A stretch of 64,000 nucleotides of DNA. Source: an uncultured Gammaproteobacteria bacterium. Its GTDB lineage: Bacteria > Patescibacteriota > Patescibacteriia > 2-12-FULL-60-25. The notes beneath the pieces were generated by a model. It saw only the letters and a list, made by a program, of their open reading frames with translations. It did not search any database and was not told the DNA's origin. The stretch spans positions 66,749 through 130,748 of the forward strand of contig CAYQAL010000001.1 in NCBI GenBank assembly GCA_964415465.1, written 5' to 3'. The translations under genes were made by a program, and so were the position numbers. Positions 5,037 to 55,565 of the stretch are shown here, piece by piece. Position 1 is the first letter of the stretch. Every line of letters begins with the position of its first letter.

Positions 5037-6743
5037 GTGTCTATGAAGTTGTTCTCTCCTGAGGGGAAAAAATCTACAGAACCAGGTGAAGCGCCTAAAA
5101 ACGCTCCAAAGGCGCCTATCTTGGAAGTGTCAGCAGTACCTACGTCGGTGTCTGAAACTCAGGGATCGGATCAGTTCACAGAGGCGGAATTAGCGCGGCT
5201 GGGGCTCCGCTCAATGCGGCCCAACCGCCGCAAAACGGCGGCTTTTTCTGGTCTTCTGGGGGCGGTATTGGTGGCTGCTGCAAAATTAGGCGTGGGCCAT
5301 GCGGATACGCAGGAGGTTCATCCACGAGATCTGCAAGAGACGGTACGGCGGGCGTCTGATGTAACACCTGAAGAATCACGAACGGAGACTCAGACCGCTG
5401 TTCAGGAACAAGAAGGGCGGATTCGTGTTGAAGCGCACGGCATGTTGGAAGGAATAGGCATGACGGACCAAGAGTTCGCCACCCGAACGCGCCAGGTGTT
5501 TGCTCCTTTTTTGAGAGAAGGAACCTATCGTTTCACGTTCACCAATCAATCACATCATTACACGCCAGAGTACTTTGGAATTCATGGAGATCAGGGTCAC
5601 TCCGGTCGTGGGCATGGACGTGGTGTAACGCAAACTCGCCCGAATCATGAATCTGGAGGGTGGTATGAAATGGCGAGCCACCGCTTTGTTGGCGAACAAG
5701 GACATCATATTACGTTGCGCCGTGACGGCCTTGATCCGACGAGGGATTACATGGACATTCAAGGTTTCTGGAGTAACGCGCTCCATGAAGTGATTCATGG
5801 TCTAGGCCATGAGAACAAGGCGGCATTTGAAGCACGCGTTCGGTCACGTCATCGCATTCCTTATCCATACACGGAGCACTTTTTAGATGTTCCACATGGA
5901 CAAACGCCGGACTATGGGCACATGGCGGACGAGTATCGCTCGAAGACGTACGAGATGATTTTTCAGGTTCGAAACGTTCCTCCGGGGAGCACGATGGAGG
6001 CAGAGGCAATTCGGATTATCCGGGAACGCTTTCCAAGTGTGTCGACATCGGTGGTCCGGAGCGATGTGAGAGCGGCCCTATCTCTTTTACCTGACGCACG
6101 TTGGGTAGAAGTTATTCGTGAATATCACGCGTTGGTGAAGCGCTCAAGTGATCAATTCGAACGTCAGATGCTCCATCGCCGAATCATAAGTCAGGTGCCA
6201 GATGCGGAATTGGCAACTCAGCTGTCTCAGCTACTTGATCAGGGACAGCGGACACTCACTGCACGTATTCTCGATCATCGTGAAAACGTAAGTGAACCGA
6301 TTCTGGTGCGTGAGTTAGTTCGGGATGTACGTGAATACCACCAGGGACTCATTGATGGTCTAGAGACAGAGATGGCAAGACAGCATCCAGAGCTTGTGCC
6401 CATGCTGCAAGCGTGGAAAGACATGGCCCGTTTTACGGCAGAGCGTGGTCGATTTCATCGTGGTCAGCTCGAGGCGTCGGAGCGCGACGACGAATATGCG
6501 ACATCTGGTCGTGGGAGAGATGTTATTATCCGTCCGATGACGGATCAATATCGAATGTCCCAATTCCGCTTTGAACTTCAAGCCGTCTCGCCGACGAACT
6601 TTGTCCAAGCCTGGAATCGCTTGTCACCAGAGGTGCGTGCCCAGATTCGCCCAACGCTTGAACAGATGGCGCGACTGGTCTCGCATACTGAGCCATTACC
6701 GCCGTTCTTTGCGACACGTGCAGAACAGGCTCAAATTCAATAA
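5037..6743 (+). CDS. membrane-anchored HExxH (zincin-like) protein with a long helical C-terminal region
   Basis: Starts 2 nt after the ftsX stop (GTG 5037 or ATG 5043). Single TM helix AAFSGLLGAVLVAAAKLGVG, motif LHEVIHGLGHEN. No family recognised. Confidence 0.6.
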   Translation: MSMKLFSPEGKKSTEPGEAPKNAPKAPILEVSAVPTSVSETQGSDQFTEAELARLGLRSMRPNRRKTAAFSGLLGAVLVAAAKLGVGHADTQEVHPRDLQETVRRASDVTPEESRTETQTAVQEQEGRIRVEAHGMLEGIGMTDQEFATRTRQVFAPFLREGTYRFTFTNQSHHYTPEYFGIHGDQGHSGRGHGRGVTQTRPNHESGGWYEMASHRFVGEQGHHITLRRDGLDPTRDYMDIQGFWSNALHEVIHGLGHENKAAFEARVRSRHRIPYPYTEHFLDVPHGQTPDYGHMADEYRSKTYEMIFQVRNVPPGSTMEAEAIRIIRERFPSVSTSVVRSDVRAALSLLPDARWVEVIREYHALVKRSSDQFERQMLHRRIISQVPDAELATQLSQLLDQGQRTLTARILDHRENVSEPILVRELVRDVREYHQGLIDGLETEMARQHPELVPMLQAWKDMARFTAERGRFHRGQLEASERDDEYATSGRGRDVIIRPMTDQYRMSQFRFELQAVSPTNFVQAWNRLSPEVRAQIRPTLEQMARLVSHTEPLPPFFATRAEQAQIQ

Positions 6744-6752
6744 GCTTCCCTT

Positions 6753-7211
6753 ATGTTAGCCCTGCTTTTTTCTGCCAATTACGACCTTCTCGGCGAACTA
6801 ACCTTCGAAGAGGGGCGGAGTACGCGCATTTCTTTATCAACGCAAGGCGATGAGGTATTACAGGATACAATCAAGGGCTGGCAGACGCGTGGAATCCCAT
6901 TGCGCGAAACCTTTGAATATACCGAGCAGCAAGCTGGTGAAGAGGTGCGGACGGTTTCCACCGGCGAACGACTGGTGTTGCTCACATCCGCAGAAGCAGA
7001 GTGGGCGTTCTTCTGTTGGGCTTCAGATGCGGGCTACATCGCCTTAAAAATGCCTGAGCGTTTGCTCGTTCAATGGCAAAAGCTGTCTCACATTCCACTC
7101 GATCCAGAAGAGCGCTTCGCAAGTCTTCAGGCCTTGTTGACGGCCCCGCACGCCTTGCTTGAGGCGTGGGAGCAGGGGATGGATAGTGTCCTTCAGACAA
7201 CTCATGGTTGA
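6753..7211 (+). CDS. hypothetical cytoplasmic protein
   Basis: 152-aa ORF tightly packed between neighbouring genes; its stop overlaps the photolyase start. Confidence 0.5.
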   Translation: MLALLFSANYDLLGELTFEEGRSTRISLSTQGDEVLQDTIKGWQTRGIPLRETFEYTEQQAGEEVRTVSTGERLVLLTSAEAEWAFFCWASDAGYIALKMPERLLVQWQKLSHIPLDPEERFASLQALLTAPHALLEAWEQGMDSVLQTTHG

Positions 7212-43259: not shown

Positions 43260-45911
43260 ATGCAGAACCCTCAGGAATTTCCGAAAAACTACGCCCCTCA
43301 AAGTGTTGAGGACGGCCTATACAAACGCTGGGAAGAGGCTGGGGTGTTTAACCCGGACACGTTGCCTGACCGTAACCAAACGGGCGAACCATACGCCATT
43401 ATGATGCCGCCACCGAACGTGACGGGGGTACTGCATTTGGGGCATTCGTTGGAGAACGCGCTTATGGATACGATGGTTCGCTTCCAGCGGTTGCGCGGCA
43501 AGCGGGCGATGATCGTTCCCGGAACAGATCACGCTGCGTTGCCAACGCAAGCGAAGGTCGAAAAACTCCTCATGCAGCAGGGGATGGCGAACCCACGTCA
43601 GGAGCTCGGTCGTGAAGGACTGCTTCAAAAGGTGCGTGAATTTGCAATGGGCTCTCAGGCGACTATTTTGAGTCAGGTAAAGAAAATGGGTACGAGCTGT
43701 GACTGGTCGCGCTTAGCCTTCACCTTTGATGATCCACGCAGTGAAACAGTGAACGAGATTTTTTGTCAGATGTATCGTGATGGATTGATCTATCGTGGGT
43801 ATCGGGTAGTGAACTGGTCCGTGAAAGGGCAATCGACCTGTTCTGATGATGAAGTTGTGTATGCGGAGCGTCCGTCGAAGATTTACACGTTCAAATATTC
43901 GGCCGATTTCCCAATTTCGATTGCTACGACTCGTCCAGAAACCAAGCTAGGAGATACCGCAGTGGCCGTTCATCCAAGTGATGAGCGCTATCAGCAGTAT
44001 ATTGGTCAAACCTTCACCGTTGATTTTGGGGCAAAGGAACCGCTTCAGATTAAAATTATCGCTGACGAAAACGTTGACAAGAATTTTGGAACAGGTGCGC
44101 TTGGCGTGACGCCAGCTCATAGCCCGATTGACTTCGAAATGTATGAGAAGCAGAAAGCGAAGGCGGATCCAATTGGCTTGATTCCAGTGATCGGTGCTGA
44201 CGGTCGTATGACAGAAGCGGCCGGTCTTCACTATCTTGGTCTCACGGTTGAGGAGGCGCGCGAGAAGGTGGTCATGCATCTCCGCGAGAAGGGTTTGCTC
44301 GAAAAAGAAGAAGAGATTGTCCAAAATGTCGGTACCTCCGATCGCTTTGGTGACGTGATTGAAGCGGTGCCTATGACGCAGTGGTGGCTCGACATGAACA
44401 AAGTGATTCCATCTCGCGGGAAGAGTTTGCGTGATTTGATGCGTGAAGCTGTGACGGATGGATTGGACGGAGACGCAAATGCGCGTGTCGCGATTCTGCC
44501 TGATCGCTACGAGAAACTGTACTTGGATCGTATTGAGCATCTTCGTGACTGGTGTTTGTCGCGTCAGATTTGGTGGGGTCATCGTATTCCGGTGTGGTAT
44601 CGCGGAGAAGAGATGGTGGCGTCACCTACTTCGCCGGGTGAAGGCTGGGAGCAGGATCCGGATACGCTCGATACCTGGTTCTCCTCAGCGACCTGGACGT
44701 TCTCAACGCTTGGTTGGCCGCATCAAACGAAAGATCTTGCCACCTATCATCCAACCCCTTGGATCCAGATGGGCTACGAGATTGTCTACCTCTGGATGAT
44801 GCGTATGATTTTGATGAGTACCTACGCGCTCAAGCAGATTCCATTCAAAACTGTTTATATTCACGGCATTCTTCGTGATGAACAGGGGAAGAAGTTCTCC
44901 AAGTCCGCTGGTAACAACATCGATCCACTCGAGATCATCGAGAAATATGGCTGTGATGCCTTGCGTTGGAGCGTCTTGATTGGAACGACGCCAGGCAATG
45001 ATTCACGTTTCTACGAGGAAAAAGTAGAGAGCGCTAAGAACTTGGTGAATAAGCTTTGGAATATTAGCCGTTACCTTTCGACGAACTTCTCTTCAGAGGA
45101 AGCAAATGTTGAAAATGGAAAAGAGACCTTTGCTGACCAGTGGCTGAAACTTCGTTTAGCAGAAGTTGTATCGTCTGTGACGAAGAAGATGGAGGCTTCA
45201 CAGTTCTCTTCGGCGGGGGAAGAGCTGCGCGACTTTACTTGGTCTGAACTTGCCGACTGGTATTTGGAAATTGCTAAAGTAGAGAAGGGAAAGTCGGCGA
45301 TTTTGCGTGAGACTTTGAAAACGATTCTGATTCTTTGGCACCCATTCATGCCCTTTGTGACGGAAGAAATTTGGCGCTTGGTGGGCTATGAAGGATTGTT
45401 GGCTGTGGCTGAATGGCCAACGCAGCCAGTCGTGGCCGGCGGGGAAGGAATCTTGGAGAGCTTTGCCGCTTTACAAACAATGGTCACTGATATTCGCCGT
45501 ACGCGGGCTGAACGTGGCATTGAACCAGGCAAACTGCTTGAATGTGCCGTGAAAACAACAGACCCACTACGCGCGACGATAGAAGCGAATGCCGACTGGA
45601 TGAAGCGTCTTGCAATGCTGTCTTCGCTGAACTGCGTGAACGAGCTCCCTGCTGGATGGGAAGCAGTTGGGTCGGGCATCTCAACGATCGCTCTGAATCT
45701 CGACGCGGCGATTGATCGCGCAGCTGAACGTGAAAAAGCAGAGAAAGAATTGAAAGAAGTCGAAGCGTACTTAGCGTCGCTAGAACAGAAACTAGCGAAT
45801 CAAGAGTTCGTGACCAAAGCGCCAGCTAAGGTCATTGATGATATGAAGAGGAAGCAGGCTGAAGCGTTGGGGAAGCAAGAAGTACTTCGGAAGAAGCTTG
45901 TTAAGGGGTAA
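43260..45911 (+). CDS. valS: valyl-tRNA synthetase
   Basis: HLGH and KFSKS class I motifs, editing domain, C-terminal coiled coil; 883 aa. Confidence 0.95.
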   Translation: MQNPQEFPKNYAPQSVEDGLYKRWEEAGVFNPDTLPDRNQTGEPYAIMMPPPNVTGVLHLGHSLENALMDTMVRFQRLRGKRAMIVPGTDHAALPTQAKVEKLLMQQGMANPRQELGREGLLQKVREFAMGSQATILSQVKKMGTSCDWSRLAFTFDDPRSETVNEIFCQMYRDGLIYRGYRVVNWSVKGQSTCSDDEVVYAERPSKIYTFKYSADFPISIATTRPETKLGDTAVAVHPSDERYQQYIGQTFTVDFGAKEPLQIKIIADENVDKNFGTGALGVTPAHSPIDFEMYEKQKAKADPIGLIPVIGADGRMTEAAGLHYLGLTVEEAREKVVMHLREKGLLEKEEEIVQNVGTSDRFGDVIEAVPMTQWWLDMNKVIPSRGKSLRDLMREAVTDGLDGDANARVAILPDRYEKLYLDRIEHLRDWCLSRQIWWGHRIPVWYRGEEMVASPTSPGEGWEQDPDTLDTWFSSATWTFSTLGWPHQTKDLATYHPTPWIQMGYEIVYLWMMRMILMSTYALKQIPFKTVYIHGILRDEQGKKFSKSAGNNIDPLEIIEKYGCDALRWSVLIGTTPGNDSRFYEEKVESAKNLVNKLWNISRYLSTNFSSEEANVENGKETFADQWLKLRLAEVVSSVTKKMEASQFSSAGEELRDFTWSELADWYLEIAKVEKGKSAILRETLKTILILWHPFMPFVTEEIWRLVGYEGLLAVAEWPTQPVVAGGEGILESFAALQTMVTDIRRTRAERGIEPGKLLECAVKTTDPLRATIEANADWMKRLAMLSSLNCVNELPAGWEAVGSGISTIALNLDAAIDRAAEREKAEKELKEVEAYLASLEQKLANQEFVTKAPAKVIDDMKRKQAEALGKQEVLRKKLVKG

Positions 45912-46020
45912 AGCGGTTGACAAAAACCAAGAAATAAGGCTAACTGAGCGGTTCGCTTGCGCGCAATGCAGGTGACCCGCTCTTTGGTCTAGAGGTCTAA
46001 TACGGCTTTGTTTTAGGGAA

Positions 46021-46093
46021 GGGGCTGTAGCTCAGCGGGTAGAGCAGGGAATTTAAAATTCCTAGGTCGCCGGTTCGAATCCGGTCAGTTCCA
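46021..46093 (+). tRNA. class-I tRNA with anticodon TAA (nominally Leu) and a tRNA-Ala-like G3:U70 acceptor stem; no encoded CCA
   Basis: Hand-folded: GGGGCTG/CAGTTCC acceptor, D arm GCTC-AGCGGGTA-GAGC, anticodon arm GGGAA-TTTAAAA-TTCCT, 5-nt variable loop, T arm GCCGG-TTCGAAT-CCGGT, A73. Confidence 0.7.
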
Positions 46094-46164
46094 CCGTCCG
46101 ATGTTAGTCGCGAATCCCCCTAACGCGCATTTGGACAACGCAGGGTGCTCGTGACCCTGCGTCT

Positions 46165-46236
46165 GGGGTAGTAGCTCAATGGCAGAGCGCCCGGGTTTAG
46201 CCCCGGGAGGTGAGGGTTCGAATCCCTTCTGTTCCA
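46165..46236 (+). tRNA. tRNA-like gene with a non-canonical anticodon arm (CCCGGG-TTTAGC-CCCGGG) and a G3:U70 acceptor stem; no encoded CCA
   Basis: Acceptor GGGGTAG/CTGTTCC with three wobble pairs, D arm GCTC-AATGGCA-GAGC, T arm GAGGG-TTCGAAT-CCCTT, A73. The anticodon loop can only be 6 or 8 nt. Confidence 0.55.
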
Positions 46237-46327
46237 CAAAGAAATGTCTCTTTGAGAGGCTCGATTGGTCACGCTGACCGGTCGGGCCTCTTCCTATTTT
46301 AAGCCAAAATCCGTAAGATGGGCCGGT

Positions 46328-47539
46328 ATGTCTACGCCTATTGTTGATCCCCAGAAATTGGACTGGCTGTTGAATCACGGAGTGGAAGAGATCCTTCCTT
46401 CAAAAGAGGCTTTTCGTGAAAAACTGCTCCGTGGAGAGCGTATTCGTTTGTATTACGGCATCGATCCAACGGGGCCAACCATTCATATCGGTCATTTGAT
46501 TCCACTCATGAAAGTGGCGGAACTTCAGGAACTTGGACATGAAATTATTATTCTGATTGGAGATTTTACCGGCATGATCGGCGATCCAACGGATAAAGGA
46601 GCCACACGTAAGCAATTAACGCGTGAGCAGGTCTTGGAAAATTGCCGACTGTATAAGGAACAGATTGGACACATTATTAAATTCGATGGGCCAAACGCAG
46701 CCCAGCTCCGGTTCAATAGTGATTGGCTCGCGAAACTCACGTTCGCAGAGGTCATTGAATTATCAGCCCACTTCACGGTTCAGCAAATGATTGAGCGCGA
46801 CATGTTCGAAAAGCGTATCGCGGAGGGTAAGCCAGTCCATCTACATGAATTCTTTTACCCGCTCATGCAGGGCTACGATTCCGTTGCCTTGGATGTAGAT
46901 CTGGAAGTTGGTGGAAACGACCAGACGTTCAACATGTTGGCTGGACGCACGCTGTTGCGTGAAATGAAGAGTAAAGAAAAGTTCGTGATGCGCTGTCGTT
47001 TGCTGACCGATCCAACCGGAAAAAAGATGGGAAAGTCAGAAGGGAACATGATTGCGCTTACTGATAGTCCAACGGATGCGTACGGAAAAATTATGAGCTG
47101 GACCGACGGAATGATTATTCCGGGTTTTGAGATTTTGACGAAGTTATCTCAGGCGGAGGTTGATGCACGCAAGGCGCGGATCGAAGCGGGCGAAAATCCA
47201 ATGGTCTTTAAGCGTGAATTGGCGGAACTCGTCGTTGCATGGGCGTTTAGTCCAGAAGGGGCAAGGCAAGCGGCCGAGCACTTCACACAAGTTCACCAGC
47301 AGGGAGAGCGACCAGAAGAAATGGCGGAAGTGAAGCTCGAAGAAGCCGAACTGCCTATTTTGGACCTGCTTGTTCGTGCGAATATCGTTCCGTCCAAGAG
47401 TGAAGCGCGCCGCCAAGTGGAACAGAAGGCCGTGCGTGTCGATGATGTCGTGATCGAGGATATTAATGCCACGATTGCGCTTCATGATGGGTTGGTTATT
47501 CAAAAGGGTAAGCGCTCGTTTGTGAAGATTGTAAAATAA
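46328..47539 (+). CDS. tyrS: tyrosyl-tRNA synthetase
   Basis: HIGH (TIHIGHLIP), KMSKS (KKMGKS), C-terminal S4-like domain. Start trimmed to ATG 46328. Confidence 0.95.
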   Translation: MSTPIVDPQKLDWLLNHGVEEILPSKEAFREKLLRGERIRLYYGIDPTGPTIHIGHLIPLMKVAELQELGHEIIILIGDFTGMIGDPTDKGATRKQLTREQVLENCRLYKEQIGHIIKFDGPNAAQLRFNSDWLAKLTFAEVIELSAHFTVQQMIERDMFEKRIAEGKPVHLHEFFYPLMQGYDSVALDVDLEVGGNDQTFNMLAGRTLLREMKSKEKFVMRCRLLTDPTGKKMGKSEGNMIALTDSPTDAYGKIMSWTDGMIIPGFEILTKLSQAEVDARKARIEAGENPMVFKRELAELVVAWAFSPEGARQAAEHFTQVHQQGERPEEMAEVKLEEAELPILDLLVRANIVPSKSEARRQVEQKAVRVDDVVIEDINATIALHDGLVIQKGKRSFVKIVK

Positions 47540-51164: not shown

Positions 51165-51251
51165 GGGCAAGTGGCGAAATTGGCAGACGCACTACCTTGA
51201 GGTGGTAGCACCCGCAAGGGTATGAGAGTTCAAGTCTCTCCTTGCCCACCA
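51165..51251 (+). tRNA. tRNA-Leu (anticodon GAG), class II
   Basis: Acceptor GGGCAAG/CTTGCCC, anticodon arm CTACC-TTGAGGT-GGTAG, long variable arm, T-loop TTCAAGT, A73, encoded CCA. Confidence 0.9.
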
Positions 51252-51253
51252 TG

Positions 51254-51298
51254 AAAACATTCCCTATACCGCGCGGTACTGGGGATGTTTTCTTTTTT
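51254..51298 (+). terminator. intrinsic terminator after tRNA-Leu
   Basis: AAAACATTCCC...GGGGATGTTTT stem followed by a T-run. Confidence 0.65.
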
Positions 51299-51328
51299 GG
51301 CTCTCTTTACGCTCTGATTCACCCTCGT

Positions 51329-51334
51329 TATAGT
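51329..51334 (+). promoter_or_regulatory. -10-like TATAGT 9 nt upstream of the asnS ATG
   Basis: TTTACG-17-TATAGT-gccagaact-ATG; no SD. Confidence 0.35.
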
Positions 51335-51343
51335 GCCAGAACT

Positions 51344-52663
51344 ATGTCTCAGTCGATTCGCGATTTCGGATCTTTGGTGGGTCAGACGGTTGAAGTACAG
51401 GGGTGGGCCTATAACGTCCGTTCCAGCGGCTCGATCGCTTTTTTGCAATTGCGTGATGGGTCGGGCTTTACGCAGGCGGTTGTGGCCAAACAATCGATCG
51501 ATGAGGCTTCGTGGCAAGCGGCGGTTGATACAACGATCGAATCATCCGTCATTGTAGAAGGGACGGTGACAAAACACCCAAAACAAGAAAACGTCTACGA
51601 ATTGCAAGCAACGAAAGTGACACTTCTTCACAAGTCGGACGAATATCCGATTGGAAAAAAAGAGCACGGACCAGATTTCTTGTTCGACAATCGCGATTTG
51701 TACCTGCGTTCCAAAACCCCGTGGGCCGTGTTACGTATCCGTGATCGTGTGTTCTTTTCGATCGAACAATTCTTCCATGAGGAAGGGTTCATCCGTTTTG
51801 ATACGCCAATCATTCAGCCGACGAGTTGTGAAGATACAACGCAGCTCTTCACCGTGAACTACTACGACACACCCGCCTATCTTTCCCAGTCTGGTCAGCT
51901 CTACAGTGAAGCGGGGATTATGGGCTTCGGAAAGGTCTATGATTTTGGTCCGGTCTTCCGTGCGGAAAAGAGTAAAACGCGTCACCACTTGTCTGAGCTG
52001 TGGATGATGGATGCAGAAATGGCCTTCCATGACCAAGCGATGAACATGGCTGTGCAGGAACGGATGGTGAAACGCATTGTCAAAGACGTTCTTGAGCAGT
52101 GCCAAGAAGAGCTTAAGATTTTAGAACGTGACACGACGATTTTGCAGCGTCTTGTAAATGAACCGTTCGTCCACCTTAAGCACATGGAGGCGAAGCGGAT
52201 CTTGAAAGAAGAGGGTCTGATTACCAAAGAGGTCTACGACGACAGTTACTGGTACGACGACATGTCGACGGAAGAAGAGATCGCGCTTGGGAACAAGTAT
52301 CAGCTCCCGATTTTTATTGAAGATTATCCAGCCGAAGTAAAAGCCTTCTACATGAAGCGCTTTACGGACGAAGGTGGCCGCCTCCGCGCGCGTTGTGCGG
52401 ACTTGATTGCACCAGAAGAAGGCCGCGAAATTATCGGCGGCAGTCAGCGTGAAGAAAGCTACGAGAAGCTGAAGCAAGAAATTCTCGACCATCACTACCC
52501 GCTCGAAAAATACGAATGGTACTTGAACACGCGTAAGTACGGAACGGTTCCTCACGCCGGTTTCGGTATCGGTCTCGAGCGTACCGTCCGCTGGATCTGC
52601 GGCGTTCACCACATTCGCGAAACAATCGCCTTCCCAAGAATGCTGAACCGGATGGAGCCGTAA
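51344..52663 (+). CDS. asnS: asparaginyl-tRNA synthetase
   Basis: Class IIb layout with an OB fold, motif 3 GFGIGLERTV.W.CG..HIRE.I.FPR. Start trimmed out of the tRNA to ATG 51344. A separate aspS is present. Confidence 0.85.
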   Translation: MSQSIRDFGSLVGQTVEVQGWAYNVRSSGSIAFLQLRDGSGFTQAVVAKQSIDEASWQAAVDTTIESSVIVEGTVTKHPKQENVYELQATKVTLLHKSDEYPIGKKEHGPDFLFDNRDLYLRSKTPWAVLRIRDRVFFSIEQFFHEEGFIRFDTPIIQPTSCEDTTQLFTVNYYDTPAYLSQSGQLYSEAGIMGFGKVYDFGPVFRAEKSKTRHHLSELWMMDAEMAFHDQAMNMAVQERMVKRIVKDVLEQCQEELKILERDTTILQRLVNEPFVHLKHMEAKRILKEEGLITKEVYDDSYWYDDMSTEEEIALGNKYQLPIFIEDYPAEVKAFYMKRFTDEGGRLRARCADLIAPEEGREIIGGSQREESYEKLKQEILDHHYPLEKYEWYLNTRKYGTVPHAGFGIGLERTVRWICGVHHIRETIAFPRMLNRMEP

Positions 52664-54098: not shown

Positions 54099-54150
54099 GC
54101 CTTATCATTGCTCTGCCTACGCCCGTATGGTGAGATACGGGAACACTCTT

Positions 54151-54156
54151 TAGTCT
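54151..54156 (+). promoter_or_regulatory. -10-like TAGTCT 8 nt upstream of the aspS ATG
   Basis: TAGTCT-tcattttt-ATG; no SD. Confidence 0.3.
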
Positions 54157-54164
54157 TCATTTTT

Positions 54165-55565
54165 ATGCCACGAACGATGATTCGCGAGACGGTGAACCAG
54201 ATTGGGGAAACCGTGACCTTGAAAGGTTGGATCCATTCACGCCGAGACATGGGAAAGTTGGCGTTTTTGGATCTTCGCGATCGTTCAGGAATCGCGCAGG
54301 TTGTATTGGTGCCAGCCGAGCTCACCGAAACGAGCCGAGAGGCGATGAAAGAGCTCCGTTCGGAATATTGCATTTCTGTTACCGGGATCGTGCAGAAACG
54401 CGGCGAAAAACAAATCAATCCAGACCTTCCAACGGGAACCGTTGAGATTTTGGCGAAGGAGCTTGAGGTGCTGAATCCTTCCAAAACTCTTCCCTTTGAA
54501 ATTGAAAACACAGCTGGTATTAATGAAGAGTTGCGCTTGAAACACCGTTACCTTGATTTACGCAGTCAGCGCATGCGAAAAAACCTCGAGCTACGCGATA
54601 AACTCATCACGTTTTTCCGGGACTTCTTGCATGGAGAAGGATTTATCGAAATTGAGACACCTATTCTCACAAAGGGTACTCCAGAAGGATCGCGTGAATA
54701 CCTTGTTCCTTCTCGTTTGCATGATGGACAGTTCTACGTACTTCCTCAGTCGCCTCAGCAGTTCAAGCAGTTGTGTATGGTCGGAGGATTGGAGCGATAC
54801 TTCCAGATCGCTCGCTGTTTCCGCGACGAAGACCAGCGTGGCGATCGTCAACCAGAATTTACTCAGCTCGATTTGGAAATGTCATTCGTGACTCAGGAGG
54901 ATGTGCTTCAGTTGAACGAGCGCATGATGATTGAAATGGTGAAGCAAGTTGCTCCAGAAAAGCACATTGCGCAGATTCCATTCCCACGAATTAGCTATCG
55001 CGAATCGATGGAGACATATGGAAACGACAAACCAGACCTACGTGTAAACAAGAATGATCCGAACGAATTGGCGTTTTGCTGGGTCGTGGATTTCCCGATG
55101 TTCGAAGACGATGGAGAAGGTGGCGTACAGGCCGCTCACCATCCGTTCTGCATGCCTCACCCGGATGATCTTGAATTGCTTGAGACGGAACCGATGAAGG
55201 TTCGGGCTTCTTCGTATGACTTGGTATTGAACGGATATGAGCTTTCGTCTGGCTCGATTCGTATCCATAAGCGTGAATTGCAAAATCGTATTTTCCAGTT
55301 ATTGGGTTTACCTGACGATTTGATCCAAGCACGATTTGGTCACATGTTAGAAGCCTTTGAATTTGGCGCTCCACCTCATGGCGGAATGGCACCTGGAATC
55401 GATCGTATCGTGATGATCCTGGCGAATGAACCAAACATCCGTGAAGTCATTCCGTTTCCAAAGACAGGAGACGCACGCGATCCGCTTATGGGCGCGCCTT
55501 CACCAATTGAAGAAAAGCGCCTCGTTGAAGCGCATATCGCTCTTCGTCCAACGGACAAGAAATAA
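54165..55565 (+). CDS. aspS: aspartyl-tRNA synthetase, bacterial type but lacking the GAD insertion domain
   Basis: OB fold, QLDLEMSF, DKPDLR followed after only ~8 aa by WVVDFPMFEDDGEGG, and motif 3 GGMAPGIDRIVM. 466 aa from ATG 54165. Confidence 0.9.
   Translation: MPRTMIRETVNQIGETVTLKGWIHSRRDMGKLAFLDLRDRSGIAQVVLVPAELTETSREAMKELRSEYCISVTGIVQKRGEKQINPDLPTGTVEILAKELEVLNPSKTLPFEIENTAGINEELRLKHRYLDLRSQRMRKNLELRDKLITFFRDFLHGEGFIEIETPILTKGTPEGSREYLVPSRLHDGQFYVLPQSPQQFKQLCMVGGLERYFQIARCFRDEDQRGDRQPEFTQLDLEMSFVTQEDVLQLNERMMIEMVKQVAPEKHIAQIPFPRISYRESMETYGNDKPDLRVNKNDPNELAFCWVVDFPMFEDDGEGGVQAAHHPFCMPHPDDLELLETEPMKVRASSYDLVLNGYELSSGSIRIHKRELQNRIFQLLGLPDDLIQARFGHMLEAFEFGAPPHGGMAPGIDRIVMILANEPNIREVIPFPKTGDARDPLMGAPSPIEEKRLVEAHIALRPTDKK

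What the first reader, a model, noticed from the sequence alone, without database searches (positions are those of the whole stretch)
46021..46236. Two tandem class-I tRNA-like genes with Leu-type anticodon triplets, a tRNA-Ala-like G3:U70 acceptor stem and no encoded CCA
tRNA 1 (46021-46093), seen directly:
- It folds as a textbook 73-nt cloverleaf with T-loop TTCGAAT and G18G19 present.
- Its 7-nt anticodon loop is TTTAAAA, so the anticodon is UAA, which reads the Leu codons UUA/UUG.
- Its variable loop is only 5 nt. The two unambiguous tRNA-Leu genes in this window (51165 and 59674) both have the expected long variable arm.

tRNA 2 (46165-46236), seen directly:
- It has a normal acceptor stem, D arm and T arm.
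- Its anticodon arm is the palindrome CCCGGG-TTTAGC-CCCGGG, so the loop can only be 6 or 8 nt, never 7.
- The loop contains UAG and UUA triplets.

Shared features, seen directly:
- Both have G1-C72, G2-C71, G3:U70, G4:U69 and A73.
- Their 5' halves (GGGG..GTAGCTCA..GG.AGAGC) resemble tRNA-Ala.
- Neither encodes CCA (ACCG and ACAA instead). All five other tRNAs in the window encode CCA.

Established knowledge:
- The G3:U70 wobble is the main AlaRS identity element, and AlaRS does not read the anticodon.
- 8-nt anticodon loops are typical of frameshift-suppressor tRNAs.

Possible interpretations (inference):
- Ala-accepting tRNAs that decode Leu or stop codons, giving programmed mistranslation, suppression or quadruplet decoding.
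- An unusual short-arm tRNA-Leu pair.
- Decaying or foreign tRNA-Ala paralogs.

All three stop codons terminate genes in this window, so a global recoding is not indicated.
Basis: partly seen in the sequence, partly recalled or inferred. Interest (0 to 1): 0.7.

Follow-up and report, generated by a model that had tools for sequence, protein, structure and literature searches.

The report
Alanine-type tRNA genes carrying leucine anticodons
Two extra tRNA genes in an uncultured (CPR/Patescibacteria) bacterium keep every hallmark of an alanine tRNA but have lost the alanine anticodon, and sister strains carry different anticodons on the same tRNA body; they are candidate natural mistranslating tRNAs, not a change of the genetic code.

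Summary
Two real tRNA genes lie at 46021-46093 and 46165-46236, between valS and tyrS of a Patescibacteria (Uhrbacteria-like) chromosome. Both have G3:U70, G4:U69 and A73, and neither encodes CCA. One has a UAA anticodon; the other has a 6- or 8-nt loop.

- **Origin:** the bodies are tRNA-Ala bodies. Of 246 metagenomic and viral tRNAs with the same acceptor/D/T signature, 242 carry Ala anticodons.
- **No recoding:** TTA and CTA codons in this organism sit at Leu positions and never at Ala positions.
- **Not the Leu decoders:** conspecific strains (ValRS 97-98% identical) carry the same genes with other anticodon arms (UAU; UGG).
- **Selection:** the tRNA1 body is invariant, while its anticodon arm differs at about the rate of the flanking non-coding DNA, with stem pairing preserved. 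The T stems predict tRNA-Ala-typical tight EF-Tu binding.
- **Locus:** in more distant relatives the spacer holds 0-7 tRNA genes, many with aberrant anticodon loops.

Best reading: these are supernumerary tRNA-Ala paralogues in a variable accessory tRNA array. They are probably alanylated, and tRNA1 could insert Ala at UUA/UUG. Expression, CCA addition, charging and any benefit are untested. I class them as a new variant of the known hybrid-identity tRNAs.

The parts
43260..45911 (+). valS (valyl-tRNA synthetase), the upstream flanking gene and syntenic anchor
   Evidence: Pfam tRNA-synt_1, Anticodon_1 and Val_tRNA-synt_C. Homologues are named valine--tRNA ligase of Patescibacteria/Uhrbacteria.
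45917..45945 (+). Conserved TTGACA box, 17-nt spacer, then CTAACT. Possible promoter of the tRNA pair (inference only).
   Evidence: Read directly. TTGACA-N17-CTAACT/CTTACT/CTAAAT is kept in all relatives that have tRNAs at this locus and is absent from L005, which has none. The consensus scan did not call it a sigma-70 promoter.
45946..45982 (+). Leader hairpin GAGCGG...CCGCUC followed by UUUGG. It could be the valS terminator, or a 5' stability or processing element.
   Evidence: Read directly. It is conserved in three haplotypes, with changes that keep the inner stem paired (alignment).
46021..46093 (+). tRNA1: tRNA-Ala-type body (G3:U70, G4:U69, A73) with anticodon arm GGGAA-UUUAAAA-UUCCU (anticodon UAA) and no encoded CCA
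   Evidence: ARAGORN. Rfam 69.6 bits. Cloverleaf minimum-energy fold. The body is identical in haplotypes B and C while the anticodon arm differs.
46138..46162 (+). Spacer hairpin ACGCAGGGU-GCUCGUG-ACCCUGCGU between the two tRNAs (possible processing site)
   Evidence: Read directly. Pairing is kept in L009 and L004 through an A-to-G change that gives a G:U pair (alignment).
46165..46236 (+). tRNA2: tRNA-Ala-type body (G3:U70, G4:U69, A73) with palindromic anticodon arm CCCGGG-UUUAGC-CCCGGG (6- or 8-nt loop holding UAG and UUA) and no encoded CCA
   Evidence: ARAGORN reports a 6-nt loop. Rfam 56.2 bits, with a 5-bp stem and 8-nt loop. The orthologue in L004 has a normal 7-nt UUUGGAU loop (anticodon UGG) and still has G3:U70.
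46254..46302 (+). Intrinsic-terminator-like hairpin plus T tract that closes the tRNA unit
   Evidence: Terminator scan: 18 pairs, tail CCTATTTTAA. Conserved in L004, L009 and L013.
46328..47539 (+). tyrS (tyrosyl-tRNA synthetase), the downstream flanking gene. A TAAGAT box lies 8 nt before the ATG.
   Evidence: Pfam tRNA-synt_1b, SYY_C-terminal and S4. It is 99.9% identical to L009, whereas valS is only 86% identical.

Best explanation
The two genes are supernumerary paralogues of tRNA-Ala. They sit in a small, strain-variable accessory tRNA array between valS and tyrS of a Patescibacteria (Uhrbacteria-like) bacterium.

**Shown:**
- They are genuine tRNA genes.
- Their acceptor, D and T arms carry the tRNA-Ala signature, including the AlaRS identity set (G3:U70, A73, G1:C72, G2:C71) and a T stem of tRNA-Ala-typical predicted EF-Tu affinity.
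- The tRNA1 body is under purifying selection. In tRNA2 the cloverleaf pairing is kept although the sequence drifts.
- The anticodon arm differs between strains at about the rate of the flanking non-coding DNA while keeping its helix. The same gene therefore reads UAA here and UAU in sister strains, and the second gene has UAG/UUA in an off-size loop here and UGG in one sister strain.
- TTA and CTA mean leucine in this organism.

**Inferred:**
- The transcripts are cut out by RNase P and a 3' nuclease, receive CCA from the CCA-adding enzyme, and are charged with alanine by AlaRS, which does not read the anticodon.
- Ala-tRNA1(UAA) has a normal 7-nt loop with U33 and A37. It can then be delivered by EF-Tu and occasionally insert Ala at UUA/UUG, in competition with the canonical class II tRNA-Leu that must exist elsewhere in the genome.
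- tRNA2, with its 6/8-nt loop and a pyrimidine after UAG, is a poor decoder.

They are thus natural hybrid-identity (potentially mistranslating) tRNAs. The persisting anticodons are of the least harmful kind (U34, A/U-rich or rare codons). They are not part of the standard decoding set and not a code change.
For: **They are tRNAs.**

**They have tRNA-Ala bodies.**
- A scan for GGGG...TAGCTCA..AGAGC..GGTTCRANTCC......TTCCA returned at least 120 loci each from metagenomes and viral contigs.
- Of the 246 matches, 242 carry Ala anticodons UGC/GGC/CGC/AGC.

**EF-Tu binding looks tRNA-Ala-like.**
- The T-stem model (Table 2 of PMC3239215) gives -10.7 kcal/mol for tRNA1 and -11.0 for tRNA2.
- The 238 scorable matches in that set average -10.57 (sd 0.38). 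The paper's tRNA-Ala means are -10.0 to -10.3.

**Three haplotypes exist in one species.**
- A: the window, L001, L002.
- B: L009-L012, from four samples.
- C: L004.

**The body is conserved and the arm is not.**
- Window versus L009: valS is 86% identical, with 64% identity at third codon positions.
- The tRNA1 body differs at 1 of 51 columns (a single indel). The anticodon arm plus variable loop differs at 7 of 23.
- Body versus arm p=9e-4; body versus flanks p=9e-4; arm versus flanks not significant.

**Structure is maintained.**
- Compensatory pairs: A30:U40 to G:C in tRNA1, and C27:G43 to U:A in tRNA2.
- G3:U70 is retained in L004 tRNA2 even though positions 67, 68 and 69 all changed.

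**There is no reassignment.**
- ValRS columns under the 4 TTA and 5 CTA codons are 64% and 53% Leu and 1% Ala.
- Across six genes and seven relatives, TTA aligns to Leu codons 70 of 87 times and CTA 61 of 71 times, and never to Ala.

**Independent second case.** A Parcubacteria MAG (L003) has a G3:U70/A73 class I tRNA with UAA, and this one encodes CCA.

**Literature.**
- AlaRS ignores the anticodon, and tRNA-Ala anticodon variants mistranslate in yeast and human cells.
- Variants with U34 and A/U-rich anticodons are the least harmful (PMC10543346, PMC12084884, PMC11415595).
Against: - **Nothing functional was measured.** There is no evidence of expression, CCA addition, alanylation or Leu-to-Ala substitution.
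- **CCA.** Neither gene encodes CCA, unlike the five canonical tRNAs of the window. No CCA-adding enzyme gene lies in the 64 kb.
- **Loop geometry.** Sizes vary: 6/8 nt in tRNA2, an 8-nt loop or a mismatched stem in the UAU variant of tRNA1, and 5-10 nt or large insertions in array members of relatives. The anticodon also turns over between strains. Both suggest decoding is not the selected property.
- **Cost.** A decoding-competent Ala-tRNA(UAA) would hit TTA (11.6 per 1000 codons) and perhaps TTG (28.4 per 1000). That should be costly unless expression is low.
- **tRNA2 body.** It is much less conserved than the tRNA1 body: 74% identity between the window and L004, about the same as the flanking DNA.
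- **Promoter.** The putative promoter fails a sigma-70 consensus scan.
Confidence: 0.5

Rival explanations
1. The tRNA body has a role that does not involve the anticodon. The RNAs would be kept for what the acceptor/T/D 'top half' does. Candidates are RNase P/Z punctuation or end-protection of the valS and tyrS-argS transcripts, a reserved Ala-tRNA donor for a non-ribosomal transferase (Fem/MurM-type cell-wall enzymes, alanyl-phosphatidylglycerol synthase), or a tRNA-shaped regulator or decoy. On this view the anticodon arm is simply unconstrained and decoding is irrelevant or selected against.
For: - The tRNA1 body is conserved while its anticodon arm drifts at about the neutral rate.
- Off-size loops (5, 6, 8, 9 and 10 nt) and 20-49-nt insertions recur in array members of relatives whose bodies are intact.
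- No haplotype retains an Ala anticodon.
- The genes sit between two mRNA genes and are flanked by conserved hairpins.
Against: - The T stems keep tRNA-Ala-typical tight predicted EF-Tu binding. This is unlike the S. aureus cell-wall tRNA-Gly, which that paper lists as a weak-binding outlier. G18G19 is also kept.
- No Fem, MprF or other tRNA-dependent transferase was found in the 64 kb.
- Relatives with 72-75% identical ValRS manage without any tRNA at this locus, so punctuation is dispensable.
- Retention of G3:U70 when its neighbouring pairs changed points to amino-acid identity, not just shape.
- Array members in relatives belong to several isotypes, so a single amino-acid donor role does not generalise.
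Confidence: 0.25
2. The genes are non-functional relics. They would be duplicated or horizontally acquired tRNA-Ala genes (hence no CCA) that lost their anticodon and are silent or harmless passengers on the way to deletion.
For: - The array is present or absent and highly variable among close relatives (0, 1, 2, 4 or 7 genes).
- Members with clearly disabled loops occur.
- tRNA2 diverges at about the flank rate.
- CCA is absent, in contrast to all canonical tRNAs nearby.
- Supernumerary, poorly expressed arrays that include pseudogenes are known (PMC8421152).
Against: - The tRNA1 body has 0 substitutions in about 50 nt across three haplotypes whose flanks differ by 20-35% (p about 1e-3 to 4e-7).
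- Compensatory changes keep both anticodon stems. Changes in the tRNA2 acceptor stem mostly convert wobble pairs to Watson-Crick pairs.
- A pseudogene should lose body structure at least as fast as the anticodon.
- The flanking TTGACA box, hairpins and terminator are conserved.
Confidence: 0.15
3. The genes are bona fide short-variable-arm tRNA-Leu genes, charged by LeuRS through A73 and tertiary elements, that serve as the UUA/UUG and CUA/CUG decoders.
For: - The anticodons UAA and UAG are exactly the two U34 Leu anticodons. They complement the class II tRNA-Leu(GAG) and (CAA) in the window.
- A73 is the main bacterial LeuRS determinant, and E. coli LeuRS does not need the long arm (established knowledge).
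Against: - Orthologous genes in conspecific strains carry UAU and UGG. Those strains still use TTA and CTA at similar frequency, including in an identical tyrS.
- The body signature is 98% tRNA-Ala.
- G3:U70 would cause alanylation.
- tRNA2 lacks a 7-nt loop and a purine at position 37.
Confidence: 0.04
4. Programmed recoding: reassignment of UUA/CUA to Ala, dedicated ochre suppression through a UUA reading of the tRNA2 loop, or quadruplet decoding by the 8-nt loop.
For: - Precedents exist. Ashbya gossypii mitochondrial tRNA-Ala(UAG) with G3:U70 reads CUU/CUA as Ala, and yeast mitochondrial tRNA-Thr(UAG) has an 8-nt loop (PMC7609411).
- With G32-U33 before it and G37 after it, UUA is the most canonical triplet in the tRNA2 loop (read directly).
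Against: - TTA and CTA columns are Leu and never Ala.
- All three stop codons terminate ORFs, and TAA is the commonest stop.
- The anticodon arms are not conserved even within the species.
Confidence: 0.03

Closest known systems
tRNA-Ala anticodon variants that mistranslate (natural human variants; the engineered set of 60 in yeast)
   Same: - A class I tRNA-Ala body with G3:U70, so AlaRS charging is independent of the anticodon.
- Non-Ala anticodons lead to Ala misincorporation.
- Variants with U34 and A/U-rich anticodons are the least harmful (PMC12084884, PMC10543346). This matches UAA, UAU, UAG and UUU seen here.
   Different: - Those are single-nucleotide alleles of ordinary genes in eukaryotes with hundreds of tRNA genes.
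- Here whole anticodon arms (stem, loop size, variable loop) differ between strains of a bacterium with a small genome.
- The genes lack CCA and sit in a dedicated accessory locus.
- Mistranslation is not demonstrated here.
allo-tRNAs (Mukai et al. 2017, as reviewed in PMC7609411)
   Same: - Bacterial tRNAs are recognised by anticodon-blind synthetases. Most have Ser identity and some carry G3:U70.
- Their anticodons span 35 codons, with UAU the commonest.
- They are proposed to be missense or nonsense suppressors and/or regulatory RNAs, and some copies are degenerate.
   Different: - allo-tRNAs have an 8/4 or 9/3 acceptor/T architecture and a long variable arm. They are found in Clostridia, Proteobacteria and Acidobacteria.
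- The present genes are canonical 7/5 class I tRNA-Ala bodies in Patescibacteria.
- One array member in a relative (L257 6080-6170) is class II and tRNA-Sec-like with G3:U70, which is closer to that family.
Ashbya gossypii mitochondrial tRNA-Ala(UAG), and the Pachysolen-clade nuclear tRNA-Ala(CAG)
   Same: tRNA-Ala-derived tRNAs with G3:U70 and a Leu anticodon (PMC7609411, PMC11415595).
   Different: - There the codon is reassigned or ambiguously decoded, and the change is fixed in the lineage.
- Here TTA and CTA are Leu, and the anticodon is not even fixed within the species.
Streptomyces/Kitasatospora tRNA-ProX (ProA, ProN, ProT) with ProRSx
   Same: Dedicated bacterial hybrid-identity tRNAs that mistranslate sense codons (PMC10404621).
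   Different: - Those have Pro identity, conserved anticodons and a dedicated synthetase paralogue next door.
- Here the neighbours ValRS, TyrRS and ArgRS are syntenic housekeeping genes, also present in relatives that lack the tRNAs.
Supernumerary bacterial tRNA arrays (L-arrays; the cryptic trn operon of Anabaena)
   Same: - Accessory tRNA clusters that vary between sister taxa and include pseudogenes.
- They are thought to spread horizontally and to be expressed only under translational stress (PMC8421152).
   Different: - L-arrays hold 20-43 mostly canonical tRNAs.
- This locus holds 0-7, many with aberrant anticodon loops or with a mismatch between body and anticodon.
Non-proteinogenic cell-wall tRNAs (S. 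aureus tRNA-Gly; tRNA-Ala used by FemX of Weissella)
   Same: Extra tRNA copies serve as aminoacyl donors outside translation, and recognition is through the acceptor arm.
   Different: - The S. aureus species keep the cognate anticodon and have weak EF-Tu T stems.
- Here the T stems are predicted to bind tightly, G18G19 is kept, and no Fem-type gene is nearby.

Membership tests
tRNA (Rfam RF00005) | Cloverleaf that scores above the family gathering score | tested here: met
   69.6 and 56.2 bits against a gathering score of 29. ARAGORN calls both.
tRNA-Ala (AlaRS substrate) | G3:U70 wobble pair in the acceptor stem | tested here: met
   Read directly in both genes. It is kept in all three haplotypes, including L004 tRNA2 where positions 67-69 changed.
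tRNA-Ala (AlaRS substrate) | A73 discriminator with G1:C72 and G2:C71 | tested here: met
   Read directly.
tRNA-Ala (AlaRS substrate) | Overall body (acceptor, D arm, T arm) of tRNA-Ala type | tested here: met
   242 of 246 metagenomic and viral tRNAs matching the shared body pattern have Ala anticodons. The pattern includes the G3:U70, G4:U69 and A73 positions, so the test is partly circular.
tRNA-Ala (AlaRS substrate) | Anticodon NGC | tested here: not met
   UAA in tRNA1 and UAG/UUA in an off-size loop in tRNA2. UAU and UGG in sister strains.
tRNA-Ala (AlaRS substrate) | Alanylation by AlaRS; a mature 3' CCA | not testable with these tools
   CCA is not encoded. No expression or charging data are available.
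tRNA-Ala (translation-competent) | T-stem pairs 49:65, 50:64 and 51:63 give the tight EF-Tu affinity typical of tRNA-Ala | tested here: met
   -10.7 and -10.9 to -11.0 kcal/mol by the PMC3239215 model, against a mean of -10.57 (sd 0.38) for the 238 scorable matches, nearly all tRNA-Ala. This is a prediction only.
Bacterial tRNA-Leu | Class II structure with a long variable arm | tested here: not met
   The variable loops are 5 and 4 nt. The window's own tRNA-Leu(GAG) and (CAA) are 87 nt with long arms.
Bacterial tRNA-Leu | Leu anticodon conserved in orthologues | tested here: not met
   The same genes carry UAU and UGG in strains with 97-98% identical ValRS.
Sense-codon reassignment (Leu to Ala, as in A. 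gossypii mitochondria) | The codon occupies positions where homologues have the new amino acid | tested here: not met
   - TTA and CTA columns are 64% and 53% Leu and 1% Ala.
- TTA aligns to Leu codons 70 of 87 times and CTA 61 of 71 times, with no Ala.
Sense-codon reassignment | Loss of the canonical tRNA for that codon | not testable with these tools
   Only 64 kb of the genome is available. Indirectly, strains with the UAU arm still use TTA, so another UUA decoder must exist.
allo-tRNA | 12-bp acceptor branch in 8/4 or 9/3 configuration, with a long variable arm | tested here: not met
   Both genes are 7/5 with short variable loops.
allo-tRNA | Identity set by an anticodon-blind synthetase, combined with diverse non-cognate anticodons | tested here: met
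   G3:U70 and A73 occur with UAA, UAU, UAG and UGG.
Non-proteinogenic (cell-wall) tRNA | Weakened EF-Tu binding, an altered D-loop GG, and an associated Fem/MurM-type transferase | tested here: not met
   - Tight predicted T stems.
- GG is present.
- No such Pfam family was found in the window. The rest of the genome was not seen.
Frameshift-suppressor / quadruplet-decoding tRNA | 8-nt anticodon loop that presents a 4-base anticodon | tested here: inconclusive
   tRNA2 can form either a 5-bp stem with an 8-nt loop or a 6-bp stem with a 6-nt loop.
tRNA pseudogene | Loss of structural constraint across the whole molecule | tested here: not met
   - Body versus flanks p=9e-4 for the window versus L009, and p=4e-7 versus L004.
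- Compensatory stem changes are present.
Supernumerary tRNA array | A cluster of extra tRNA genes that varies between close relatives | tested here: met
   The valS-tyrS spacer holds 0 genes (L005, L006, L014), 1 (L258), 1-2 (L007), 2 (this species), 4 (L013) or 7 (L257). With 2 genes it is far below the 20-gene definition of an 'array unit'.

The most novel reading that the evidence does not exclude
The valS-tyrS spacer of this Patescibacteria clade may be a dedicated, fast-turning-over cassette locus for hybrid tRNAs. In it, bodies recognised by an anticodon-blind synthetase (here AlaRS) would be re-targeted to different, mostly rare or A/U-rich codons from strain to strain. That would give each strain a different, conditionally expressed codon-specific Ala-substitution (or decoding-interference) activity, for example in stress tolerance or in conflict with phages whose codon usage differs from the host's. 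My data do not exclude this. They also show no excess of anticodon-arm change over the divergence of the flanking non-coding DNA, so they give no positive support for diversifying selection.
Probability: 0.1. Interest if true: 0.85.

Novelty: new variant of a known kind. Interest (0 to 1): 0.6.

Why it matters
- **Gap in the record.** Natural tRNAs whose amino-acid identity and anticodon disagree are the raw material both of codon reassignment and of regulated mistranslation. Bacterial examples are few: allo-tRNAs, tRNA-ProX and tRNA-Sec/Cys hybrids. A 2024 review lists no bacterial class I tRNA-Ala with a non-Ala anticodon.
- **What is new here.** A canonical 7/5 tRNA-Ala body is kept by selection while its anticodon arm differs between conspecific strains, reading UAA, UAU, UAG-like or UGG. 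This occurs in a reduced-genome CPR bacterium, where every tRNA gene should count.
- **If the RNAs are charged and decode.** This would be a natural polymorphism in which codon is mistranslated as Ala. It could be tested directly by metaproteomics, looking for Leu-to-Ala substitutions in haplotype A and Ile-to-Ala in haplotype B.
- **If they do not decode.** Selection is then preserving a tRNA 'top half' for a function not yet known.
- **Annotation.** ARAGORN labels tRNA1 'tRNA-Leu(UAA)', which would be mistaken for the cell's UUA decoder.

Tried and rejected
1. **Code reassignment.** Tested with a 116-homologue ValRS alignment and a codon-by-codon comparison of six genes in seven relatives. 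Rejected.
2. **Search for the same kind of tRNA in 185,579 species genomes.** The pattern required GGGG, GCTC/GAGC, YTTAAR and TTCNANT. It gave one hit, L003 in a Parcubacteria MAG. The window's own genome is not in that collection, and the pattern was narrow.
3. **Hypervariable or diversifying anticodon arm.** This was my first impression from L004. It was rejected as unsupported once valS turned out to differ by 36% at third codon positions. The arm does not differ significantly from the non-coding flanks (p=0.28).
4. **EF-Tu avoidance as a sign of a non-ribosomal tRNA.** Not found.
5. **Neighbouring Ala-tRNA-dependent enzymes, a dedicated synthetase paralogue or a CCA-adding enzyme.** Four Pfam scans covering 40 long ORFs found none. 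The flanking synthetases are syntenic housekeeping genes.
6. **Other RNA families in the spacer.** A permissive Rfam search found nothing credible.
7. **Adaptation of codon usage to the strain's anticodon.** I compared TTA, ATA, CTA and CCA counts in four orthologous genes. No clear difference appeared and there are too few codons.
8. **More haplotypes through the exact TyrRS protein.** Only the known contig came back. One search failed on a frame error.
9. **Nature of contig L064.** It carries an Ala-type body with a UUU anticodon. PHROGs and Pfam gave only ThyA-like, NTPase_1 and Bax1-I hits, so its origin is unresolved. Searches failed on wrong ORF coordinates.
10. **Not available.** tRNAscan-SE isotype models, so the body-pattern census served as a substitute.
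Full report
**Observation.** The window region 46021-46236 holds two real tRNA genes on the + strand.
- ARAGORN reports 46021-46095 as 'tRNA-Leu (taa)'. It reports 46165-46237 as a tRNA of undefined type with a two-base anticodon, i.e. a 6-nt loop.
- Rfam's tRNA model scores them 69.6 and 56.2 bits against a gathering score of 29. It aligns the second with a 5-bp anticodon stem and an 8-nt loop.
  - Acceptor stems GGGGCUG/CAGUUCC and GGGGUAG/CUGUUCC give G1:C72, G2:C71, G3:U70 and G4:U69.
  - A73, GG in the D loop and T loop UUCGAAU are present.
  - The anticodon arms are GGGAA-UUUAAAA-UUCCU and CCCGGG-UUUAGC-CCCGGG.
  - The variable loops are short.
  - The 3' trailers are ACCG and ACAA, whereas the other five tRNAs of the window all encode CCA.
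- The same sequence occurs in two independent sequencing runs (L001, L002).

**Organism and setting.**
- The genes lie between valS (43260-45911) and tyrS (46328-47539), and argS follows.
- ValRS homologues are named Patescibacteria or Candidatus Uhrbacteria.
- The rest of the window is an ordinary CPR chromosome segment: ParA/ParB, Fmt, Def, PriA, MurA, several synthetases and a D-Ala-D-Ala carboxypeptidase.
- It contains no tRNA-dependent transferase, no synthetase paralogue dedicated to these tRNAs and no CCA-adding enzyme.
- Elements of the spacer, in order:
  - A conserved TTGACA-N17-CTAACT box directly follows the valS stop.
  - A hairpin (45946-45982) precedes tRNA1.
  - A second hairpin (46138-46162) separates the two tRNAs.
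  - A terminator-like hairpin with a T tract (46254-46302) follows tRNA2.
- The promoter assignment is my inference. The consensus scan did not call it.

**What the bodies are.**
- I scanned metagenome and viral contigs for the acceptor/D/T signature shared by both genes, leaving the anticodon arm free: GGGG...TAGCTCA..AGAGC..GGTTCRANTCC......TTCCA.
- Of 246 matches, 242 are tRNA-Ala with UGC, GGC, CGC or AGC anticodons.
- The bodies are therefore tRNA-Ala bodies, and G4:U69 next to G3:U70 is a common natural tRNA-Ala variant.
- The four exceptions include L064. It has a body almost identical to tRNA1, a UUU anticodon and no CCA, and sits on a contig of unclear origin.
- A narrower scan of 185,579 species genomes for class I tRNAs starting with GGGG and carrying a UAA anticodon found one case. 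It is a Parcubacteria MAG tRNA with G3:U70 and A73 (L003).

**No change of the code.**
- TTA occurs at 11.6 and CTA at 4.6 per 1000 codons in the window.
- In an alignment of ValRS with 116 homologues, columns under the 4 TTA and 5 CTA codons average 64% and 53% Leu and 1% Ala. This is indistinguishable from the other Leu codons. Columns under GCN codons are about 46% Ala.
- In a codon-by-codon comparison of six genes with seven relatives, window TTA aligns with Leu codons in 70 of 87 cases and CTA in 61 of 71. Neither ever aligns with Ala.

**Comparison with sister strains.** This is the decisive result. Contigs whose ValRS is 97-98% identical carry the same two genes with other anticodon arms.
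- Haplotype B (L009-L012, four samples) has tRNA1 with GGGGA-ACUUAUAA-UCCCC. This is a UAU anticodon in either an 8-nt loop or a 7-nt loop with one stem mismatch. Its tRNA2 is identical to the window's.
- Haplotype C (L004) has the UAU-type tRNA1. Its tRNA2 has the arm UCCGG-UUUGGAU-CCGGA, a UGG anticodon in a normal 7-nt loop.
- These strains still use TTA and CTA at similar frequencies. Haplotype B even shares a 99.9% identical tyrS with the window. The UAA and UAG arms therefore cannot be the essential Leu decoders.

**Rates of change.**
- Between the window and L009, valS DNA is only 86% identical (64% at third codon positions). Everything from the first base of tRNA2 through tyrS is identical. 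The locus is thus a recombination mosaic with a breakpoint at tRNA2.
- On the diverged side, the tRNA1 body (acceptor, D and T arms) differs at 1 of 51 columns, a single D-loop indel.
- The anticodon arm plus variable loop differs at 7 of 23 columns, and the non-coding flanks at 36 of 181.
- The body is significantly more conserved than the arm (p=9e-4) and than the flanks (p=9e-4; against L004, p=4e-7). The arm is not different from the flanks (p=0.28).
- Stem pairing is kept by compensatory changes: 30:40 A:U to G:C in tRNA1, and 27:43 C:G to U:A in tRNA2.
- In L004 tRNA2, acceptor positions 67, 68 and 69 all changed while U70, and so G3:U70, stayed.
- Hence the body and the Ala identity pair are under purifying selection. 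The anticodon arm needs only to remain a helix.
- My first impression of a 'hypervariable' arm is not supported once the neutral rate is taken into account.
- The tRNA2 body is less conserved (74% between the window and L004), although most of its changes preserve structure.

**Competence for translation.**
- I used the three-base-pair T-stem model of Schrader and Uhlenbeck (Table 2 of PMC3239215).
- tRNA1 (G49:U65, C50:G64, C51:G63) is predicted at -10.7 kcal/mol. tRNA2 (G49:U65, A50:U64, G51:C63) is predicted at -11.0.
- This lies inside the distribution of the 238 scorable matches, nearly all tRNA-Ala (mean -10.57, sd 0.38). It is at or tighter than that paper's tRNA-Ala means (-10.0 to -10.3).
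- There is no sign of the weak EF-Tu binding that marks the non-proteinogenic tRNA-Gly of Staphylococcus.
- tRNA1 in the window has a canonical 7-nt loop with U33 and A37. tRNA2 has no 7-nt option and has a pyrimidine after UAG. If its triplet is read as UUA, it has U33 before and G37 after.

**Wider context of the locus.** In more distant relatives the same spacer is highly variable.

| Locus | ValRS identity | tRNA genes in the spacer |
|---|---|---|
| L005, L006 | 75%, 74% | None |
| L014 | 72% | None (a protein gene instead) |
| L258 | 70% | One Trp-like tRNA with a 6-nt loop |
| L007 | 68% | A GGC tRNA without G3:U70 and with C33, plus a degenerate tRNA-like sequence |
| L013 | 77% | Four tRNA-like genes |
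| L257 | 73% | Seven tRNA genes |

- Two of the four L013 genes have insertions of 20-49 nt in the anticodon arm.
- The seven L257 genes are:
  - canonical-looking Arg, Trp and Thr tRNAs;
  - an Ala-like body with a 10-nt loop;
  - a Gln-like body with a 5-nt loop;
  - a class I 'Tyr';
  - a class II, tRNA-Sec-like gene with G3:U70, A73 and a UUUAAA loop.
- The spacer is thus an accessory tRNA array in this clade. It mixes ordinary-looking tRNAs with members whose body is intact but whose anticodon loop is off-size or mismatched to the body.

**Interpretation.**
- Best supported: the two genes are supernumerary tRNA-Ala paralogues that retain what RNase P, AlaRS and EF-Tu require but have lost the Ala anticodon.
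- AlaRS does not read the anticodon, and tRNA-Ala anticodon variants do mistranslate in yeast and human cells (PMC10543346, PMC12084884, PMC11415595). I therefore infer that, if matured with CCA, they are alanylated. tRNA1 could then insert Ala at UUA/UUG at some low level.
- In yeast the least harmful tRNA-Ala variants are those with U34 and A/U-rich anticodons (PMC10543346). Those are the kinds seen here (UAA, UAU, UAG-like; UUU in L064). This fits anticodons drifting among tolerated states.
- I give this reading 0.5.
- The main rival (0.25) is that the selected function lies in the tRNA top half alone, for example processing punctuation, a non-ribosomal Ala donor or a regulatory RNA. The recurrent off-size loops across the clade favour it. 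The tRNA-Ala-like EF-Tu T stem, the dispensability of the locus in relatives and the lack of a partner enzyme nearby count against it.
- Plain pseudogenes (0.15) are hard to reconcile with the conserved tRNA1 body and the compensatory changes.
- A short-arm tRNA-Leu (0.04) and programmed recoding (0.03) are effectively excluded by the strain comparison and the codon tests.

**Relation to known systems.**
- The closest functional analogues are:
  - tRNA-Ala anticodon variants of humans and yeast;
  - allo-tRNAs (Ser or Ala identity with anticodons for 35 codons, UAU the commonest; PMC7609411);
  - the reassignment tRNAs tRNA-Ala(UAG) of Ashbya mitochondria and tRNA-Ala(CAG) of Pachysolen;
  - the tRNA-ProX family of Streptomyces (PMC10404621).
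- The genomic behaviour resembles supernumerary tRNA arrays (PMC8421152).
- The present genes are not members of the allo-tRNA family, because they have 7/5 architecture and a short variable loop. They are not reassignment tRNAs, because the codon tests failed. They are not cell-wall tRNAs, because the EF-Tu and GG criteria are not met.
- A 2024 review's section on other bacterial mistranslating tRNAs lists no class I tRNA-Ala with a non-Ala anticodon (PMC11415595).
- I therefore class this as a new variant of a known kind.

**Limits.**
- Nothing here shows transcription, CCA addition, charging or misincorporation.
- Only 64 kb of the genome and three haplotypes were available.
- The tRNA-Ala census pattern contains the identity positions themselves.
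- The EF-Tu values are model predictions derived from E. coli and Thermus data.

Noticed in passing
window 43260-47539 versus L009 2677-6958: The locus is a recombination mosaic. ValRS is 98% identical in protein but valS DNA is only 86% identical (64% at third codon positions). Everything from the first base of tRNA2 through tyrS is 99.9-100% identical. The breakpoint coincides with the 5' end of tRNA2.
   Followed up: partly
L257 5294-6172 (SRR14234072, ValRS 73% identical): Seven tRNA genes lie between valS and tyrS, none with CCA. They include a Gln-like body with a 5-nt anticodon loop, an Ala-like body with a 10-nt loop, and a class I 'Tyr(GUA)'. The last (6080-6170) is a class II gene that scores as tRNA-Sec (53 bits, gathering score 47) and has G3:U70, A73 and a 6-nt UUUAAA loop.
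   Followed up: partly
L013 4194-4638 (SRR22388203, ValRS 77% identical): Four tRNA-like genes occupy the same spacer. Two have insertions of about 20 and 49 nt in the anticodon arm or loop. One is a canonical-looking tRNA-Asn(GUU) without CCA. One has a 7-bp stem, a GAAAAAA loop and U3:G70.
   Followed up: partly
L003 295-469 (Candidatus Parcubacteria MAG BM519, PKTI01000036.1): Two class I tRNAs with Leu anticodons sit in tandem, and both encode CCA. The first has UAA with G3:U70 and A73. The second has CAA with acceptor ACUUGGG and a pyrimidine (C) at position 37. A VanX-like D-Ala-D-Ala dipeptidase gene lies just downstream.
   Followed up: no
L064 5100-7300 (LNFM01019047.1): This contig has low coding density and several tRNA-like modules. 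One is an Ala-type body nearly identical to tRNA1 but with a UUU anticodon. Two modules are each followed by the repeat TTAACCRGGCAAGTGCAATCT. Neighbouring ORFs hit ThyA-like, NTPase_1 and Bax1-I families, so it may be a phage or mobile element.
   Followed up: partly
L007 6711-6784 (GCA_018061025.1, ValRS 68% identical): This tRNA shows the mirror-image mismatch. It has an Ala anticodon (GGC) but acceptor GCGCAUC (G3:C70, so no AlaRS identity pair) and C instead of U at position 33. A degenerate tRNA-like sequence follows it at about 6853-6945.
   Followed up: no
window 46314-46330, and the equivalent positions in L005, L007 and L013: tyrS has a -10-like box (TAAGAT or TACTAT) 8-9 nt upstream of its ATG and no visible Shine-Dalgarno sequence. 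This suggests a leaderless or near-leaderless mRNA.
   Followed up: no
window, all long ORFs: ATA is the third rarest sense codon at 2.1 per 1000. It occurs 0-2 times in about 2250 codons of four orthologous genes in each of the three strains. The UAU arm of haplotypes B and C therefore targets an almost unused codon.
   Followed up: partly
window 51242-52663 and 54108-55565: Two class IIb synthetase genes (tRNA-synt_2 plus an OB anticodon-binding domain) lie 1.4 kb apart, and tRNA-Leu(GAG) overlaps the upstream end of the first ORF. Which of Asp, Asn or Lys each one serves was not determined.
   Followed up: no
window 46190-46207: The anticodon arm of tRNA2 consists of two CCCGGG (SmaI/XmaI-type) palindromes separated by 6 nt. 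Thermodynamic folding prefers a non-cloverleaf structure for this tRNA.
   Followed up: no
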